A stretch of DNA of 12,023 bases from a virus. Shown one piece after another: positions 1,839-11,916 of the stretch. The position numbers and the translations under genes are program-made. The notes below the pieces were generated by a model. It saw nothing but the letters and a program-made list of their open reading frames with translations. It was not told the origin of the DNA and made no database searches. The first letter of the stretch is position 1. The number at the start of each line of letters is the position of its first letter. The stretch lies in the UHGV virus genome UHGV-1573643. One strand, given 5' to 3'.

Positions 1839-3212
1839 CTACTTAATCAACGGCCGGAAAGCCGCCAGCACATCATCAGATCGTCCGATTGTTGAACCAC
1901 CAGGCAACGGCAACTCAAACTCAAAACGAACAGCTTTCTCCAGACTCGCCCAACTAAGGGAATCATCGTTAATGACGTGCAAATACCAGCTCTTACAGTT
2001 GAATATTGACCGCTTAATCCTGAAACCATGTACACGACACAACTGCTTCACTTCATCATCAGAGTGAAACTTCTGGTAAAACCAGTGCCCCTTCCGGTAC
2101 AACGCGGTAAAACCGTTATGATCAATAAAATAAAGCCGGCTTTTGGAACTCGCCGCTTGTGTTTGCTTCAGGACTGTTTCCAGCTCTCCACGGCTACGAC
2201 CAGAAAAGAATATTGACCCACCAGCTTTACACAGGCCTTTCAGAACCGTCAGAACGGACCATTCAGCCTCGACACTATCGACCGAGTTCAAAACGCTATC
2301 GCAAATCACGTAGTCGTAACGCCCTCGCGTTTTTAAGTCGTCCACCAGCGTATCAATCATTCGGTTTGTTGCAGCCCTATCCAGAGTGTTTCCAGCGCCC
2401 TTACGGCGGAAAAGCTCGAGATCATGCAGGTTATATCCCTTTGCCCTGAGCATTCGCGCGTAGTCTCCCTGCCCCGAACCAAAATCAATTCCTCTTGGCG
2501 TCTTGGCAATGATCGGGAGGATCAACGACTCATACAGATTTGATTTCAGGCTGCCACCATTACGCAACCGCATAAGCTGCGCATACGTCTGGATGTATGT
2601 TGTTTTCTCCAGATGAGAATACTCAAATACACCATAAGTTTTATTCAGATAACTTTGGTATTTTTCCTTCTCAACATCAGGGATCACAAACACCGTTAGC
2701 GGTGTGCGCGTCATTTTCGCTGCTAATGCATACTGAGCACAGTGAATAACCTCACCAGACTGAGTAGCAACACAACCACCCCACGGACCATACTTGATAA
2801 CCAGTTCCGCTATGTTCTTTCGAACATATGCCATTTTCGCGCGCATATTGCCTGAGATCTGGCTTGCCGATACCTGAACAAAACCATGCTTATCTTCCTG
2901 ACCGGACACCCTGCAACGCTCATCTCCGCTATCAAAATCCGTTCCGTTATGCAGTTGGTTAAACCGTACTTCGTCGTATACCGTCGTTTCACAGGGCAAC
3001 ACATACACCGCAGCACGCGTTATTCCCAACTTACGTAGCGCCTTCGTCCTTTGGTGTCCCGCCACCAGCAAATCGCCGCGCACTATCAATGGCTTCACAA
3101 GCCCCAGCTCCCTGACGCTTTCCGCCAGCCTCGCAAGATCATCCTCACCGATAAAACGCGGGTTATATTCCGCGCCGCGTAGGTGCGTTATGTCGTAATT
3201 GAGGTGAAGCAT
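1839..3212 (-). CDS. ParB/Srx-like N-terminal domain fused to class I SAM-dependent methyltransferase fold (about 457 aa)
   Basis: N-terminus KPLIVRGDLLVAGHQRTKALRKLGI parallels the ParB-like paralogs; C-terminal half has Rossmann MTase motif I IDFGSGQGDYARML, an acidic beta2 end (NLHDLELF) and YDYVICDSVLNSV. No DPPY/NPPY/DPPW motif, so substrate is unclear. Preferred start ATG 3212..3210 (GGAGG 9 nt upstream, TGATG overlap with upstream stop); alternative GTG at 3218. Confidence 0.8.
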   Translation of the reverse strand: MLHLNYDITHLRGAEYNPRFIGEDDLARLAESVRELGLVKPLIVRGDLLVAGHQRTKALRKLGITRAAVYVLPCETTVYDEVRFNQLHNGTDFDSGDERCRVSGQEDKHGFVQVSASQISGNMRAKMAYVRKNIAELVIKYGPWGGCVATQSGEVIHCAQYALAAKMTRTPLTVFVIPDVEKEKYQSYLNKTYGVFEYSHLEKTTYIQTYAQLMRLRNGGSLKSNLYESLILPIIAKTPRGIDFGSGQGDYARMLRAKGYNLHDLELFRRKGAGNTLDRAATNRMIDTLVDDLKTRGRYDYVICDSVLNSVDSVEAEWSVLTVLKGLCKAGGSIFFSGRSRGELETVLKQTQAASSKSRLYFIDHNGFTALYRKGHWFYQKFHSDDEVKQLCRVHGFRIKRSIFNCKSWYLHVINDDSLSWASLEKAVRFEFELPLPGGSTIGRSDDVLAAFRPLIK

Positions 3213-3835
3213 CAGCACACCTCCCCAGCCAGCAATGCGGATACAAATCCGATATAGCTGCCATTATCATCAACATAACGAGACACCGCGCAGTCAAAAC
3301 GATCCGCTTCCTCATCCGTTGCCGGGATTTTATGACCTCCAAATGACAGGTACTGAACTTTTACGCCTGATTTGGCCTCATCCTTCTCAAATGGGATATC
3401 CATACCCTCTGTGTCATCGTAGACCGCCGCACTCAATAAGTTATCCAGTTCGCGCTGAGTAAAACCAATTGAGTCCAGAGCAAAATCATCGGCCGCAAGA
3501 TCTGCAAGCTCCGCGCTTAACAGCTCTTCATCCCAACCAGCATTCAGCGGAATACGGTTGTCGGCCAGACGATATGCCTTCTTCTGATTCTCCGTTAGCC
3601 CTTCCAGAACAATGCAGGGAACATCATCCATCCCCAACTGAGTGGCCGCAGCAATTCGACCATGACCAGCAATTACAACGTTGTTCTCGTCTATCAGGAT
3701 CGGATTAGTCCATCCGTACTCCTGTATGCTGGCAACAATCTGATCTACCTGCTCCACGGAGTGTGTGCGAGCGTTCTTTTCATAACCAATCAACACAGAA
3801 AGTGGTAAAGAAACCACATTAAGATGTTTTGTCAT
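3212..3835 (-). CDS. ParB/Srx-like N-terminal domain protein, paralog 2 (207 aa)
   Basis: ORF-track ORF; motif ILIDENNVVIAGHGRIAAA and QKKAYRLADN typical of the ParB N-terminal (ParBc) fold; stop overlaps the start of the fusion gene. Confidence 0.8.
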   Translation of the reverse strand: MTKHLNVVSLPLSVLIGYEKNARTHSVEQVDQIVASIQEYGWTNPILIDENNVVIAGHGRIAAATQLGMDDVPCIVLEGLTENQKKAYRLADNRIPLNAGWDEELLSAELADLAADDFALDSIGFTQRELDNLLSAAVYDDTEGMDIPFEKDEAKSGVKVQYLSFGGHKIPATDEEADRFDCAVSRYVDDNGSYIGFVSALLAGEVC

Positions 3836-4127: not shown

Positions 4128-4535
4128 CTAATCAGATAAACCAAACTTCTTCTTTGCCAATGACTTGAGAAGTTCTACACCAACATCCTTCATAACAGCC
4201 AATGGCTCATTGCTAATTTCTTTTAGTCTAGCGAAAACATCTTTGCTCTCTAGTGCACAGGCAAAATCCTGTCCCTCTGTAGTCAATCTAATATCTACAT
4301 CAACAGTCCTCATTCCTGCCAAAAAATTAACATAGCCAAGACGCAGAGGATCACGCGTTTCCATCTTCATATTGCTGATAAAACCTTGCTCAATCAATTG
4401 CATATAATGAAACATGCCCTTTTCTGAGGCTATATCAAACCCCGCGTCTCTTAGTTGATTTACTGTTATGAACGTGCTTTCTGAATCCAAAAACACAGTC
4501 AGCATCTTTTTTAGATAATCTAGATCGGTGCGCAT
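4128..4535 (-). CDS. hypothetical protein (135 aa), AT-rich moron with its own terminator
   Basis: ATG at 4535..4533 preceded by AAGGAGGG (strong SD, 5 nt spacer); visibly AT-richer than neighbours (by eye); followed by an intrinsic terminator. The ORF track's longer 4571 start lacks an SD. Confidence 0.7.
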   Translation of the reverse strand: MRTDLDYLKKMLTVFLDSESTFITVNQLRDAGFDIASEKGMFHYMQLIEQGFISNMKMETRDPLRLGYVNFLAGMRTVDVDIRLTTEGQDFACALESKDVFARLKEISNEPLAVMKDVGVELLKSLAKKKFGLSD

Positions 4536-4622
4536 TTTACCCTCCTTAAATGGAACGCAAATGTTACACAACCTTTAAAAAAAGACACATTGTTTTATTT
4601 ATGCCTCATTTTAATCGACCAA

Positions 4623-4775
4623 TTACTGCCTAAATTTATCAATAAATAATTGCTCCCGCTTACGCCGAAAAGCTCTCTGCGCCACTAAGATGCGCCACAG
4701 GACACCAGCGATAACCACCAGCGAGATACAAAAACACACGGCCACAACCATCAGAAAAATGCCAACACCATTCAT
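4623..4775 (-). CDS. small single-pass membrane protein (50 aa) with cationic C-terminal tail
   Basis: Hand translation MNGVGIFLMVVAVCFCISLVVIAGVLWRILVAQRAFRRKREQLFIDKFRQ; ATG overlaps the upstream stop as ATGA (4775..4772), indicating translational coupling. Below the 60 aa cutoff of the ORF track. Confidence 0.45.
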   Translation of the reverse strand: MNGVGIFLMVVAVCFCISLVVIAGVLWRILVAQRAFRRKREQLFIDKFRQ

Positions 4776-4978
4776 GAAACTATCCATTCTTCAATGAATA
4801 TCTCCAGTAATGTCAAGAGATACGCCGTCCCCAGCGCGGTTCCTACCGATATAGCTAAGACAAACCTCAAAGATAACGAGGTGTCTTTCGCTTTTCTCCA
4901 GACGTAAGCGCCAGCCAGAAATACCAACAAATCTCTTATTGGAAGCGGAAACCAGAACAAATCACTCGGCAAGTCCAC
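4772..4978 (-). CDS. small membrane protein (68 aa, two predicted TM segments)
   Basis: ORF-track ORF; GTG start at 4978 with GGAAGGA 8 nt upstream, embedded in the 3' end of the upstream gene; hydrophobic stretches LLVFLAGAYVW and FVLAISVGTALGTAYLLTLL. Confidence 0.5.
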   Translation of the reverse strand: MDLPSDLFWFPLPIRDLLVFLAGAYVWRKAKDTSLSLRFVLAISVGTALGTAYLLTLLEIFIEEWIVS

Positions 4979-4980
4979 GG

Positions 4981-5436
4981 TTATATCCTTCCATTCATTT
5001 TTATCGGATGACCAGATAGCCTTACGCAGTTGAGCTGTAAAGCTCCGGTATCAACTAAATAATCAACTAACATGATTAGAGATTCATATTCAGCCAGACA
5101 GCTAACCTGACGCATTCGACCGCCGTTGTTCTCCAGAATGTCGGCCACCTTTGCAGCCAACTCGCTTAGACAGGAGAACTTATTCCCATATATCGTTTTA
5201 TACTCGCGCTTCTGGCATTCTTCGGCTTGCGGCTGGTTATCGAGAGCTATCATCGACCGATAACTATCAAGGAAGTCCACAATCTCATTCAGGCACTCTT
5301 TGGCTGCCTCATCGTGACTTTTTCCGTATGCTTCATGGAGGACTTTCATCCTCATCATTGCTCCGTCACACATAATCGAAAGCGCGTAAAGCACATCACT
5401 AATCGCCATTTCTTTTTTGGTGCTTGTCGAAGGCAT
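4981..5436 (-). CDS. hypothetical protein (151 aa), first gene of a four-gene accessory cassette
   Basis: ORF-track ORF; ATG at 5436 with AAGGAG about 9 nt upstream; sits directly after an intrinsic terminator. No family recognised. Confidence 0.65.
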   Translation of the reverse strand: MPSTSTKKEMAISDVLYALSIMCDGAMMRMKVLHEAYGKSHDEAAKECLNEIVDFLDSYRSMIALDNQPQAEECQKREYKTIYGNKFSCLSELAAKVADILENNGGRMRQVSCLAEYESLIMLVDYLVDTGALQLNCVRLSGHPIKMNGRI

Positions 5437-5461
5437 CCCATGTTCTCCTTTGTCTGGATGT

Positions 5462-5487
5462 AAAAAAGCCCCGGCAATTGCCGAGGC
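5462..5487 (-). terminator. rho-independent terminator / attenuator between the two accessory cassettes
   Basis: 8 bp stem 5468-5475/5480-5487 with AATT loop; the single mismatch on the plus strand becomes a G-U wobble in minus-strand RNA; followed on the minus strand by UUUUUU (complement of 5462-5467). 24 nt after the stop at 5511. Confidence 0.6.
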
Positions 5488-5510
5488 TCGTTGTTCGTTA
5501 TCGTTACGGT

Positions 5511-5708
5511 TTAATGCTCGCGTCGTCCGGCGACAACTTCGGATTTGTATTTCAGATCGCCCAGCAAGAATTGCAGTTTAAGCATCTTTGCCGCCGTGTA
5601 GTTCCCTGATTCCACAACCTCTTTCATGAGGTCATAAACGGCCGCTACATCATCAGCCAGGAACTCTTTGCGTTGCTGCTCAGTCGCACGTTTGAAGGAA
5701 ATACGCAT
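5511..5708 (-). CDS. hypothetical small protein (65 aa), second gene of an overlapping pair
   Basis: ATG 5708..5706 overlaps the upstream TGA (5710..5708) as TGATG; ORF-track ORF (listed from alternative GTG at 5711). Confidence 0.55.
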   Translation of the reverse strand: MRISFKRATEQQRKEFLADDVAAVYDLMKEVVESGNYTAAKMLKLQFLLGDLKYKSEVVAGRREH

Positions 5709-5977
5709 CACTCATCATCTCCTGCCGCACATACAACCTCACAAAAAACATCAGCGGAATGTTTCTTCTTGAATGAATGACGCTCAAAACCGCACTCAAT
5801 ATCAGGCGCAAAAACATCCACCACATACGGTCTTTCAGAATGTTGGTTTTCCCAACGATAAACCGTAGTGACGTTGAAATGTTTTAACGCTTCACGGAAC
5901 TCAACGCTGCCCGTCAGGTTTTTTGAGGTCAGGTATTGCAGGAGGTTTTTTACTACTTCACGGTCTTGTACTTTCAT
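5708..5977 (-). CDS. hypothetical small protein (89 aa), first gene of an overlapping pair
   Basis: ORF-track ORF; ATG at 5977 with GGAGA 7 nt upstream; about 90 nt downstream of AT-rich motif copy A. Confidence 0.6.
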   Translation of the reverse strand: MKVQDREVVKNLLQYLTSKNLTGSVEFREALKHFNVTTVYRWENQHSERPYVVDVFAPDIECGFERHSFKKKHSADVFCEVVCAAGDDE

Positions 5978-6063
5978 CGGGTTATCTCCGGTTTAACCAG
6001 GGCGGGTATCGCTCGGTTTCGGGTATAACCTTAGGAATTTTTTTCCCACCTGTAAAGCACTTT

Positions 6064-6093
6064 TTATATAAATCTATAATTATATAATTCTAT
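6064..6093 (-). promoter_or_regulatory. AT-rich palindromic motif, copy A (candidate promoter/operator)
   Basis: TATATAAATCTATAATTATATAATTCTAT; contains the perfect palindrome AATTATATAATT; overlaps the stop of the MT-A70 gene and lies upstream of the 5977 start. Related copies at 7199-7233 and 11868-11893. Confidence 0.45.
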
Positions 6094-6677
6094 GGCACTT
6101 GCCAGAGAGCATCATGCAACTGGATACCTCCGTTGCACTGGTTGCCCCAGCCATGCCAGCCATCAGGTAAATCACCGCGAGCAAACAGCTCAATACGAGG
6201 AACATCACCTAACAGTCTTACCAGCTTGTCACGAACCACATCAGGCTTCCGTGAATGTTCCAGACGAGGCGATGTAAACGACTGAATGATCCCCGCATCA
6301 AGGCGGGTCGGCAGTTTGCCTTTTACCGCAAACAAGCAATCTTCACTGTTCGCACGAGTCATATGCCCCATCCCCATCACCAGCTTATCTGGCTGTCGGC
6401 TACCACATTTGTTCCATGTGAAGCCCTTCATGGTCATAAGCCTGAACCCCCATGCTTTCACCACCAGCAACGCTTCTTCTGGCTGAGTCGGAACCCACCA
6501 CATGGCCAACAAACACGATTCAGGATTAGCAAGTTGCCAGACAGGAATACGAGCAATCTCCTCAGCTTTCATCGTTGGATACTTAAAACCAGCTCCACGA
6601 TTCCCATCCTTACACTTGTCTTTGTATTCCCAGGGGGGATCTGCATAAATCAGATTAAACAATGCAATTGCCTCCAT
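6090..6677 (-). CDS. MT-A70 family N6-adenine DNA methyltransferase (195 aa)
   Basis: N-terminal motif LIYADPPWEY (DPPW catalytic motif of the MT-A70 family); ATG at 6677 with GGAGG upstream. Confidence 0.8.
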   Translation of the reverse strand: MEAIALFNLIYADPPWEYKDKCKDGNRGAGFKYPTMKAEEIARIPVWQLANPESCLLAMWWVPTQPEEALLVVKAWGFRLMTMKGFTWNKCGSRQPDKLVMGMGHMTRANSEDCLFAVKGKLPTRLDAGIIQSFTSPRLEHSRKPDVVRDKLVRLLGDVPRIELFARGDLPDGWHGWGNQCNGGIQLHDALWQVP

Positions 6678-6986
6678 GTTAGTTGTGCCTCCGGCGCTTA
6701 TCTCCGGCAGTCATAACGCTGGCCAGCTCTACAGCAAACACAACGAAAAGGGCACTAACCAGACTGATTAATGCCCTTGCCTGTTGTGTGCCGGATATCG
6801 CCCGACAACGCTGTTTTGGTAACACGGCTACAGTTCCGTGCCGCTCCAGCTTTTACCCCTTTGCGGATAACAGGCCCTGCCTGTAACTTAGCCCCACGTT
6901 CGCCCGAAATGCGCACCAGGCACGCATAAAGATGAGCACGAAGGAAGTAACTCCACCGCGCTTATCTTTATGTGTGAGAGTGAATT

Positions 6987-7061
6987 GGTGGCCCCTACCG
7001 GATTTGAACCGATGACCGTGCGATTATGAGTCGCCTGCTCTAACCACTGAGCTAAGGGGCC
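6987..7061 (-). tRNA. tRNA with CAU anticodon (Met, or lysidine-modified Ile2-type)
   Basis: Minus-strand sequence GGCCCCTTAGCTCAGTGGTTAGAGCAGGCGACTCATAATCGCACGGTCATCGGTTCAAATCCGGTAGGGGCCACCA folds as a cloverleaf: 7 bp acceptor stem GGCCCCT/AGGGGCC, D-arm GCTC/GAGC, anticodon loop CTCATAA, T-loop TTCAAAT, encoded CCA. The 5' half matches my recollection of E. coli ileX (not searched). Confidence 0.85.
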
Positions 7062-7157: not shown

Positions 7158-7198
7158 TTGATGCGTGCGCTCATGAGAAAAGCGCATAGAATGTTGTA

Positions 7199-7233
7199 AC
7201 TATATATTTATATAATTATAGAAATATATATTA
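7199..7233 (-). promoter_or_regulatory. AT-rich palindromic motif, copy B
   Basis: Minus-strand reading TAATATATATTTCTATAATTATATAAATATATAGT shares the 14 bp core CTATAATTATATAA with copy A; directly 3' of the Rz1 stop and upstream of the palindrome and tRNA. Confidence 0.45.
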
Positions 7234-7440
7234 CTTGGGGCAGTTGATTTCCCATGCCCTGTTATGAGCCAGAATATCTTTCTTTGTCTGGCGGTCCATA
7301 ACATCGATATCGTGATCAGTCAGGTAGATGGGCTTTACCCAATCACAGGCGGTATCAACCACCACCGGGACGCTTCCACGACTCCCGCAGCTCGCGATCA
7401 ACATCGTCATCAGCCATATGGTTAACACTCTGCTGTACAT
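7231..7440 (-). CDS. o-spanin (Rz1-like outer-membrane lipoprotein), nested in and extending past the i-spanin gene
   Basis: Signal peptide with lipobox MYSRVLTIWLMTMLIASC; reading frame embedded in the 3' part of the i-spanin gene and extending 124 nt beyond it, the overlapped spanin architecture. Confidence 0.6.
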   Translation of the reverse strand: MYSRVLTIWLMTMLIASCGSRGSVPVVVDTACDWVKPIYLTDHDIDVMDRQTKKDILAHNRAWEINCPK

Positions 7441-11848: not shown

Positions 11849-11867
11849 TGTCGAGGCATCCTTATAC

Positions 11868-11893
11868 ATTTATATAAATATATAATTCTATAT
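11868..11893 (-). promoter_or_regulatory. AT-rich palindromic motif, copy C (candidate promoter of the regulatory operon)
   Basis: ATTTATATAAATATATAATTCTATAT; equals copy A minus the 9 bp CTATAATTA; ends about 20 nt upstream of the 11848 ATG. Confidence 0.45.
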
Positions 11894-11916
11894 ACGGCGG
11901 GAGACGTCCCGCCGTA
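11893..11916 (-). other. perfect 10 bp hairpin (possible terminator of upstream gene or operator)
   Basis: TACGGCGGGA-GACG-TCCCGCCGTA; on the minus strand it is followed by the A/U-rich motif copy C, not a clean U-tract. Confidence 0.45.

What the first reader, a model, noticed from the sequence alone, without database searches (positions are those of the whole stretch)
5462..6093. TGATG-overlapping two-gene pair between promoter-like motif A and a terminator
An 89 aa and a 65 aa protein overlap by one nucleotide (stop/start TGATG), sit about 90 nt downstream of AT-rich motif A and are followed 24 nt later by an intrinsic terminator. This compact, insulated bicistron has the layout of toxin-antitoxin or small regulator pairs. 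The products are unrecognised by me.
Basis: partly seen in the sequence, partly recalled or inferred. Interest (0 to 1): 0.5.

Follow-up and report, generated by a model that had tools for sequence, protein, structure and literature searches.

The report
Small phage-plasmid operon, not toxin-antitoxin
The two overlapping small genes are real and form their own promoter-to-terminator unit in a 48-kb E. coli phage-plasmid, but the first gene is swapped or deleted in viable relatives, so they are not a toxin-antitoxin pair; they look like an accessory operon of still unknown function.

Summary
Observation confirmed. On the minus strand, gene A (5977..5708, 89 aa) and gene B (5708..5511, 65 aa) overlap by one base (TGATG). 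An AT-rich motif lies 87 nt upstream and a strong intrinsic terminator 21 nt downstream. Both genes are under purifying selection (dN/dS 0.07-0.36).

The window comes from a ~48-kb Enterobacteriaceae myovirus-type phage-plasmid (98% identical to Yersinia phage vB_YpM_39; over 60 E. coli plasmids).

The toxin-antitoxin reading fails:
- There are no TA, defence or Pfam hits.
- A is replaced by an unrelated gene (A') in some relatives.
- A is deleted in the isolated phages vB_YpM_41 and vB_YpM_44.
- All four A/A' x B1/B2 combinations exist.
- A-family proteins occur without B elsewhere.
- One-base and four-base overlaps occur at 19 gene junctions of the plasmid.

What is there is an autonomous, moron-like transcription unit. 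It is driven by one of three near-identical ~150-nt promoter and leader cassettes per genome. B, a helical hairpin, is the conserved core. A is an exchangeable module that elsewhere sits beside orphan DNA methyltransferases on plasmids.

My best guess is an accessory establishment or host-interference function. This is inferred, not shown. Interest is modest; the repeated cassette is the more notable feature.

The parts
6065..6101 (-). AT-rich 'motif A': about four tandem 8-bp units (ATAGAATT ATATAATT ATAGATTT ATATAAAA). It begins at the stop codon of the MT-A70 gene and lies directly upstream of the -35 hexamer.
   Evidence: TRF period 8, 3.8 copies. Eight such arrays occur in the full plasmid L002, three of them in the parA locus.
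6028..6056 (-). Sigma-70-type promoter candidate: -35 TTTACA (6056..6051), a 17-nt spacer holding the inverted repeat GGGAAA-N-TTCC(T) (6047..6033), and -10 TAAGGT (6033..6028).
   Evidence: Read. The window copy has only 3 of 6 matches in the -10 hexamer, so the scan missed it. The orthologous copy TTTACA-17-TATGGT is the only promoter-like site found in L003 600-1600. Across lineages the -10 varies as TAAGGT, TATGGT or TATTCT and keeps TAnnnT. No transcript data exist.
5978..6027 (-). 5' leader with the Shine-Dalgarno sequence GGAG (5989..5986, 8 nt before the ATG). It is part of a ~150-nt cassette that is 85-97% identical between lineages whose synonymous sites are saturated.
   Evidence: The leader folds at -26.6 kcal/mol, z = -3.1. 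The cassette is present three times per plasmid.
5708..5977 (-). Gene A, 89 aa (PHROG 6143). It is a stand-alone copy of an alpha2-beta3-alpha N-terminal module that in other elements is fused to varied C-terminal extensions.
   Evidence: pLDDT 79.5; 42 clusters. dN/dS is 0.09-0.36.
5743..5748 (-). T6 run inside gene A. Length variants here shift the frame and replace the last ~12 residues of A with a 21-residue tail that overlaps gene B (98-aa variants P0003 and P0004).
   Evidence: P0004 seen on 29 contigs. The position was read.
5511..5708 (-). Gene B, 65 aa (PHROG 6621), a soluble two-helix hairpin. Its Shine-Dalgarno sequence GGAG (5722..5719) lies inside the conserved GDDE C-terminus of A.
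   Evidence: pLDDT 90.7; helices 10-34 and 39-59. dN/dS is 0.07-0.23. The B2 allele is homologous: hhalign probability 98.4%, E 9e-15.
5460..5489 (-). Intrinsic terminator: GAGCCTCGGCAATTGCCGGGGCTT followed by a T run.
   Evidence: A terminator follows B in all 7 lineages aligned.

Best explanation
The pair is an autonomous, moron-like two-gene transcription unit of a ~48-kb Enterobacteriaceae myovirus-type phage-plasmid.

Shown:
- Both genes encode proteins under purifying selection.
- They are translationally coupled by a 1-nt stop/start overlap.
- The unit starts at a conserved promoter-like cassette and ends at a conserved terminator.
- The same ~150-nt cassette (AT-rich 8-bp array, TTTACA-17-TAnnnT, 5' leader, GGAG, ATG) occurs three times per genome. 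It drives exactly three gene families: A/A'/deltaA-B, a DUF3560 protein, and a 126-aa protein followed by an HTH_3 gene.
- B is the constant component.
- The upstream slot is exchangeable (A, unrelated A', or empty) and is dispensable for a plaque-forming phage.

Inferred:
- The three cassettes make a small co-regulated regulon read by host sigma-70 RNA polymerase. It is not under the CI-type repressor, whose ACCAC-N5-GTGGT operators lie elsewhere.
- The products are accessory establishment or host-/defence-interference factors rather than virion parts or a toxin-antitoxin pair. A-family genes elsewhere sit immediately after orphan DNA methyltransferases in plasmid accessory islands and next to the repressor gene of a lambdoid prophage. 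Here the operon lies between an MT-A70 methylase and a lineage-variable accessory region followed by ParB-methyltransferase genes.
- B most likely acts through protein-protein contacts as a small dimerising helical hairpin. Its net charge is not conserved (pI 9.0 in B1, 5.7 in B2), which argues against nucleic-acid binding.
For: Identity of the element.

Coding status.

Conserved synteny MT-A70 -> A -> B -> terminator -> variable genes -> ParB_N genes.

Cassette in three copies, and the list of genes it drives.

Promoter hexamers.

Terminator conservation.

Slot exchange and deletion.

B1/B2 homology.

A as an N-terminal module with varied C-terminal extensions.

A-like genes after N6_Mtase on a Serratia plasmid and a 149-kb plasmid contig. 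These two share 73% identical methylases, so they count as one module. An A-long gene lies beside hok and DUF4942 on a 98-kb plasmid. Another lies after a cI-like repressor in a lambdoid prophage.

A' homologues on about 24 small conjugative plasmids.

Orphan methyltransferases and uncharacterised small genes are enriched together with anti-defence genes in plasmid leading regions: PMC11541004, read.

CI-type operators elsewhere.
Against: - No transcript data exist, so the promoter, its timing and termination are predictions.
- The window's -10 hexamer (TAAGGT) is weak.
- The link to methyltransferases rests on only two independent contexts.
- Unlike classical morons, the unit is conserved across the lineage. 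Its G+C content (45-47%) is only slightly below that of its neighbours.
- The high conservation of the leader could partly reflect gene conversion among the three copies rather than function.
Confidence: 0.5

Rival explanations
1. Type II toxin-antitoxin module: one product poisons the cell, the other neutralises it and autoregulates the operon, stabilising the plasmid-prophage.
For: The layout fits: two small genes of 65-89 aa with a 1-nt overlap, their own promoter and terminator, on a plasmid replicon. An inverted repeat lies in the promoter spacer.
Against: - No TA or defence family match.
- A is replaced by unrelated A' with B unchanged, and all four A/A' x B1/B2 combinations exist.
- A is deleted and B kept in the isolated phages vB_YpM_41 and _44 and in L039.
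- A-family genes occur without B in several plasmids and prophages.
- The promoter and its inverted repeat are shared with two unrelated operons.
- The plasmid already carries an annotated RelE/ParE toxin with an HTH partner.
- Neither protein has a membrane segment.
Confidence: 0.04
2. A small transcription-regulator unit. B (possibly an atypical ribbon-helix-helix or hairpin dimer), with or without A (whose beta3-alpha part weakly resembles AP2/integrase-N DNA-binding domains), binds the cassette (inverted repeat or 8-bp array). It thereby feedback-controls the three cassette operons or switches on later genes.
For: - B is the invariant partner of an almost invariant cassette.
- The N-terminus of B1 (RISFKRAT) followed by two helices joined by a G-N-x-T turn is reminiscent of RHH proteins (my reading).
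- The unit sits between the early/lysis genes and the packaging genes.
Against: - No RHH or HTH family match, even at E <= 1.
- Helix 1 of B is 25 residues, long for an RHH.
- B2 is acidic (pI 5.7) with few N-terminal basic residues.
- The 8-bp arrays have a better candidate binder, the ParG-like RHH protein encoded after parA.
- The AP2-like resemblance is at noise level among PH-domain hits.
Confidence: 0.2
3. Virion assembly or packaging accessory factors, such as a chaperone or head-tail connector helper, expressed with the late genes.
For: The genes are co-oriented with, and about 5 kb upstream of, the terminase-portal-capsid genes.
Against: - PHROGs gives 'unknown function' and no structural-protein match.
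- The unit is cut off from the late genes by its own terminator and a variable accessory region.
- A is dispensable in isolated phages.
- A-family and A' genes occur on non-phage plasmids.
- The pair persists in a Yokenella element that lacks terminase, portal and capsid genes in the stretch fetched.
Confidence: 0.05

Closest known systems
Phage 'morons' (autonomous promoter-gene-terminator units inserted in lambdoid and other phage operons; concept from my own knowledge of Hendrix and co-workers)
   Same: It has its own promoter-like element and its own intrinsic terminator. It is inserted between co-oriented genes (the MT-A70 gene and the downstream accessory genes). It encodes small proteins that are not needed for particle formation, at least A.
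   Different: The unit is conserved in every lineage of this phage-plasmid found, rather than sporadic. Its base composition is close to that of its neighbours. Its promoter is one of three identical cassettes, so it is part of a regulon rather than a lone insertion.
Type II toxin-antitoxin operons, e.g. the RelE/ParE-HTH pair on the same plasmid (NZ_CP062206 8825..9471)
   Same: Two small genes with a 1-nt stop/start overlap on a plasmid replicon, and an inverted repeat in the promoter.
   Different: There are no toxin or antitoxin domains. The partners are freely exchanged or lost. The promoter is shared with unrelated operons. See the membership test.
Leading-region / establishment islands of conjugative plasmids (orphan methyltransferases with small anti-defence genes; PMC11541004)
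   Same: A-family genes lie directly after orphan N6 methyltransferases on Serratia and other enterobacterial plasmids, and here after an MT-A70 methylase. The genes are small, uncharacterised and modular.
   Different: This element is a phage-plasmid with no oriT or conjugation genes in the annotated record. No known anti-defence domain is present, and no activity has been shown.
Global repressor / centromere-binding RHH systems (omega of pSM19035; ParG-parH of TP228; from my own knowledge)
   Same: Arrays of short tandem repeats with 8-bp spacing lie upstream of parA and of several other operons, including this one. A ParG-like RHH protein is encoded after parA.
   Different: Binding is untested. 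The arrays abut -35 hexamers and could equally be UP-element-like promoter parts. This concerns the regulation of the pair, not the pair's own function.
PHROG 6143 and PHROG 6621 (phage protein families of unknown function)
   Same: A matches PHROG 6143 at E 4e-52 (model positions 1-88 of 218). B matches PHROG 6621 at E 1e-48 over its full length.
   Different: These families carry no functional annotation. A covers only the N-terminal 40% of the 6143 model.

Membership tests
Type II toxin-antitoxin system | At least one product belongs to a recognised toxin or antitoxin fold or family | tested here: not met
Type II toxin-antitoxin system | The two genes are obligate, co-inherited cognate partners | tested here: not met
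   A is replaced by unrelated A'. A is deleted with B kept in vB_YpM_41/_44 and L039. The combinations A+B1, A'+B1, A+B2 and A'+B2 all exist. A-family genes occur without B.
Type II toxin-antitoxin system | The operon is autoregulated through an operator private to it | tested here: not met
   The whole promoter and leader, including the inverted repeat, is present in three copies that drive unrelated genes. Binding itself was not tested.
Type II toxin-antitoxin system | One product is toxic and the other neutralises it | not testable with these tools
   This needs expression of each gene alone and together. The survival of natural A-less elements argues that B is not a toxin requiring A.
Phage moron (autonomous transcription unit) | Own promoter immediately upstream | tested here: inconclusive
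   TTTACA-17-TA(A/T)GGT is conserved, and it is the only promoter-like site scanned in L003. The window copy is below the scan threshold. No transcript data exist.
Phage moron (autonomous transcription unit) | Own factor-independent terminator immediately downstream | tested here: met
   A 10-bp stem with 7 G-C pairs and a T6 run. A terminator follows B in 7 lineages, with compensatory changes.
Phage moron (autonomous transcription unit) | Sporadic presence among related phages and/or atypical base composition | tested here: not met
   B is present in every related element found. G+C is 45-47% against 49-52% in the neighbours. Only the A slot is sporadic.
PHROG 6143 / PHROG 6621 | Significant match to the family HMM | tested here: met
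   E 4.1e-52 and 1.2e-48.
Plasmid/phage anti-defence or establishment genes | Genomic association with orphan methyltransferases or anti-restriction islands | tested here: met
   MT-A70 -> A here and in all relatives. N6_Mtase -> A-like on a Serratia plasmid and a 149-kb plasmid contig. This gives only two independent contexts.
Plasmid/phage anti-defence or establishment genes | Demonstrated inhibition of a defence system, or homology to a known inhibitor | tested here: not met
   No homology to any known family. Activity cannot be tested here.

The most novel reading that the evidence does not exclude
The 8-bp AT-rich arrays and the thrice-repeated 150-nt promoter and leader cassette mark a plasmid-wide regulon of this phage-plasmid. 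In this reading the ParG-like partition protein, or B itself, doubles as a global regulator in the manner of omega or KorB. It would tie plasmid partition to the expression of a set of establishment genes. The A/A' slot would be a swap site for new anti-defence or host-takeover proteins, and B would be a previously undescribed small hairpin factor common to all of them.
Probability: 0.15. Interest if true: 0.6.

Novelty: new member of a known kind. Interest (0 to 1): 0.3.

Why it matters
If the reading is right, the main value is negative. A layout that looks like a toxin-antitoxin module (two small overlapping genes with their own promoter and terminator, on a plasmid) is shown by natural swap and deletion variants not to be one. 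This is a useful caution for layout-based TA calls in phage genomes, where 1- and 4-nt overlaps are routine.

On the positive side, the work defines three things in a phage-plasmid that is common in clinical and animal E. coli, including ATCC 25922:
- a small regulon built from three identical promoter and leader cassettes;
- an exchangeable gene slot next to methyltransferases that is a reasonable place to look for new anti-defence proteins;
- a conserved 65-aa hairpin protein with no known relatives.

None of this answers a long-standing question.

Tried and rejected
1. Rosetta-stone idea: the long A-family proteins (150-256 aa) might be A+B fusions. An HMM of B against all 37 A-family sequences gave nothing (best 3.6 bits), so this was rejected.

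2. Excisionase / HTH_17 reading of the 'VTTVYRW' segment of A. There is only a PHROG 1553 hit at E 0.25, and AF2 places that segment in a beta-strand. Rejected.

3. A leader peptide in the 5' UTR. A 19-codon ORF ending in ATGA exists in L003, L004, L010 and L012, but its ATG is missing in the window. Rejected.

4. A known RNA family in the leader or terminator. Rfam found only the tRNA above threshold; isrJ (22.4 bits, against a gathering score of 37) over the terminator is a chance match.

5. A trans-acting antisense RNA against the shared leader. No complement of 12 nt or more exists elsewhere in the plasmid.

6. Control by the CI-type repressor. Its ACCAC-N5-GTGGT operators are at the immunity region, before the 124-aa gene and before repA, and not near the pair.

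7. A B-like partner after A-like genes in other elements. The 60-aa helical protein after the A-like gene in L051 looks similar by eye (GN-AA-x-x-LQLQ), but hhalign gives probability 0.2%. The genes that follow A-like genes in L023, L025 and L053 are unrelated.

8. Searches that returned little or nothing. A scan of species-representative genomes for the A family found nothing. AFDB Foldseek was unavailable. Literature searches found no study of this element's genes.

Full report
**What is in the sequence**

All genes of the window run on the minus strand.
- ORF A spans 5977..5708 (ATG, 89 aa) and ORF B spans 5708..5511 (ATG, 65 aa). The TGA of A shares its last base with the ATG of B.
- A GGAG lies 8 nt before A's ATG. 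Another GGAG, inside the last codons of A, lies 10 nt before B's ATG (read).
- The AT-rich motif occupies 6101..6065 and begins at the stop codon of the upstream MT-A70 methyltransferase gene. It is an 8-bp tandem array of about 3.8 units. Its degenerate pattern gives 16 matches in the window against none expected.
- A terminator with a 10-bp stem, 7 G-C pairs and a T6 run sits at 5489..5466, 21 nt after B's stop.

**Where the window comes from**

The window is 98% identical to Yersinia phage vB_YpM_39, a 49-kb myovirus. It also matches 47-50-kb non-mobilisable plasmids in 74 of 5,426 complete E. coli genomes, and plasmids of E. fergusonii, E. albertii and K. aerogenes.

The annotated plasmid NZ_CP062206 shows a phage-plasmid. 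It has RepA, ParA, an annotated RelE/ParE toxin gene with an HTH gene beside it, an XRE/CI-type repressor, a P2-like tail module, terminase-portal-capsid genes, and a lysis cassette.

The local gene order is: holins, GH108 endolysin, spanins, tRNA, MT-A70 methylase, A, B, a variable set of small genes, two ParB_N/methyltransferase genes, then the packaging genes.

**Are A and B real genes?**

Yes. Orthologous pairs were recovered from a metagenome contig, Hafnia, Yokenella and Salmonella. Synonymous sites are saturated (pS 0.63-0.9). dN/dS is 0.09-0.36 for A and 0.07-0.23 for B.

Both families are very small:
- About 11 clusters each among 5.8 billion proteins.
- 42 clusters for a profile of A among 1.84 billion representatives.
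- PHROGs 6143 and 6621, both of unknown function.

**What the proteins look like**

AlphaFold2 gives A a fold of two helices, a three-stranded sheet and a C-terminal helix (pLDDT 79.5). B is a two-helix hairpin (pLDDT 90.7).
- BFVD and PDB Foldseek give nothing significant for either protein.
- PDB sequence profiles give nothing.
- Neither protein has a membrane segment. A has pI 5.8. B1 has pI 9.0, but the allelic B2 has pI 5.7.

In the wider A family, the ~90-residue domain is the N-terminus of proteins of 150-256 aa. These carry at least three unrelated C-terminal extensions, none known to Pfam.

**Test of the toxin-antitoxin reading**

Five lines of evidence count against it.
1. There is no TA or defence family match.
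2. The overlap is not diagnostic here. The plasmid has 7 junctions with 1-nt overlaps and 12 with 4-nt overlaps.
3. The partners are not cognate.
   - In K. aerogenes (L010) and E. coli pMB9880_3 (L027), A is replaced by an unrelated 76-86-aa protein A' (BLASTP E 0.15). The leader, the overlap and B remain.
   - B exists as two alleles, B1 and B2 (36% identity, hhalign probability 98.4%).
   - All four combinations occur: A+B1 (window), A'+B1 (L010), A+B2 (Salmonella L022) and A'+B2 (L027).
4. A can be lost. In the isolated phages vB_YpM_41 and _44 and in an IMG/VR contig, the first 8 codons of A are fused in frame to a complete B. B expressed without A is therefore tolerated by a plaque-forming phage.
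5. A-family genes occur without B on Serratia and other plasmids, in a lambdoid prophage and in other phages.

**The promoter and leader**

Alignment of five lineages shows that the ~150 nt upstream of A is 85-97% identical, while third codon positions are only 25-58% identical. This stretch comprises the AT-rich array, AAAAAGTGCTTTACA, a 17-nt spacer holding AGGAAA-N3-TTTCCT, TA(A/T)GGT, and a ~50-nt leader ending in GGAG-N8-ATG.

The hexamers TTTACA and TAnnnT with 17-nt spacing fit a sigma-70 promoter. In L003 this is the only promoter-like site the scan finds. In the window the -10 hexamer (TAAGGT) falls below the scan's threshold.

The same cassette, identical up to the ATG, occurs three times in the full plasmid. 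Across all 54 loci it precedes only three gene families:
- A/A'/deltaA-B;
- a 355-357-aa DUF3560 protein;
- a 126-aa protein followed by an HTH_3 gene.

The AT-rich array alone occurs at eight places in the plasmid. Two lie before parA and one lies before the following 82-aa gene, whose product has a ParG-like ribbon-helix-helix C-terminus. The CI-type operators (ACCAC-N5-GTGGT) lie elsewhere.

The leader folds better than shuffles (z = -3.1), but the predicted pairs are not kept across lineages. It matches no Rfam family, and no complementary RNA target was found.

I therefore read the pair as one arm of a three-operon regulon. The regulator is unknown.

**The terminator**

A terminator follows B in all seven lineages, with two pairs changed on both sides.

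In most lineages there are two terminators about 250 nt apart. The window and its closest relatives lack the first terminator and the intervening non-coding stretch, and keep the second.

Downstream of the terminator the gene content differs in every lineage. In the window this region drops to 38-40% G+C.

**What it most likely does**

Nothing assigns a biochemical activity. What can be said is contextual.
- The A slot is exchangeable and dispensable.
- A-family genes lie directly after orphan N6 methyltransferases in plasmid accessory islands. One lies beside hok and DUF4942 on another plasmid, and one lies next to the repressor gene of a lambdoid prophage.
- A' has homologues on about 24 small conjugative plasmids near the korA-parA-parB region.
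- Orphan methylases and small uncharacterised genes cluster with anti-defence genes in plasmid leading regions (PMC11541004).

I therefore favour an accessory establishment or host-/defence-interference role for the slot gene. B would be a small protein-binding hairpin that is the constant component. This is inference; overall confidence is about 0.5 for the operon model and lower for the function.

A regulator role for B remains possible (0.2). A virion role is unlikely (0.05), and a TA role very unlikely (0.04).

**Novelty and verdict**

The TA interpretation is not supported. The proteins belong to already catalogued families of unknown function.

The unit is best filed as a conserved moron-like accessory operon, a new member of a known kind. 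The repeated promoter and leader cassette and the swap-prone slot are the more interesting aspects. Interest: 0.3.

Noticed in passing
window 5978-6101; L002 8656-8790, 40847-40965, 47858-47990: A ~150-nt promoter and leader cassette, identical up to the ATG, occurs three times per phage-plasmid. It drives three unrelated operons: A-B, a DUF3560 protein, and a 126-aa protein followed by an HTH_3 gene. It is far better conserved between lineages than the coding sequences.
   Followed up: yes
window 6065-6101, 7197-7245, 11863-11899; L002 3604-3706, 4385-4414, 8750-8779, 46735-46764: AT-rich arrays of 8-bp tandem units occur at eight places in the plasmid. Each abuts the start of a transcription unit, including parA and the ParG-like RHH gene after it. 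This suggests a shared promoter element or a global regulator/centromere-protein binding site.
   Followed up: partly
window 6986-7061 (minus strand): A tRNA with anticodon CAT sits between the lysis cassette and the MT-A70 gene, preceded by an AT-rich array. ARAGORN and GenBank call it tRNA-Met, whereas RefSeq annotates the plasmid copy as tRNA-Ile.
   Followed up: no
window 4128-5436 (minus strand): The region between the pair's terminator and the ParB_N genes holds a different gene set in every lineage. Here it has a 151-aa protein, two small hydrophobic proteins of 68 and 54 aa, and a DUF2513-like 147-aa protein. G+C falls to 38-40%. It looks like an accessory-gene hotspot.
   Followed up: partly
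L027 1158-1460; L003 1218-1530 (absent from the window): In most relatives two intrinsic terminators after gene B bracket about 250 nt of conserved non-coding DNA. The window lacks the first terminator and this stretch. No Rfam family matches it.
   Followed up: partly
window 5743-5748: A T6 run in gene A is a frameshift site. The 98-aa variants (P0003, P0004; P0004 on 29 contigs) have a different C-terminus that runs over the start of B. This is either real polymorphism or homopolymer sequencing error.
   Followed up: partly
L002 2302, 2405, 3156, 11951: Palindromes ACCAC-N5-GTGGT lie in the divergent region next to the XRE/CI-type repressor gene. One also lies before the 124-aa gene and one just upstream of repA, hinting that the repressor also controls plasmid replication.
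   Followed up: no
L012 (Yokenella regensburgei contig), 13920-18700: In this relative the 239-aa gene is followed directly by tail-type genes (sheath-sized 489 aa, tube) and an IncFII RepA. There are no terminase, portal or capsid genes in the stretch fetched. It may be a defective or satellite-like derivative that still keeps the A-B unit.
   Followed up: no
window 1839-3835 (minus strand): Two adjacent ParB_N-domain genes (207 aa and 459 aa) overlap by 7 nt. The 207-aa protein matches PADLOC MTase_II at E 6e-38 and the 459-aa protein more weakly (E 7e-8). Orthologues of the 459-aa gene carry a precomputed Methyltransf_23 hit. With MT-A70 upstream, the operon lies in a region with several methyltransferase-related genes.
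   Followed up: partly
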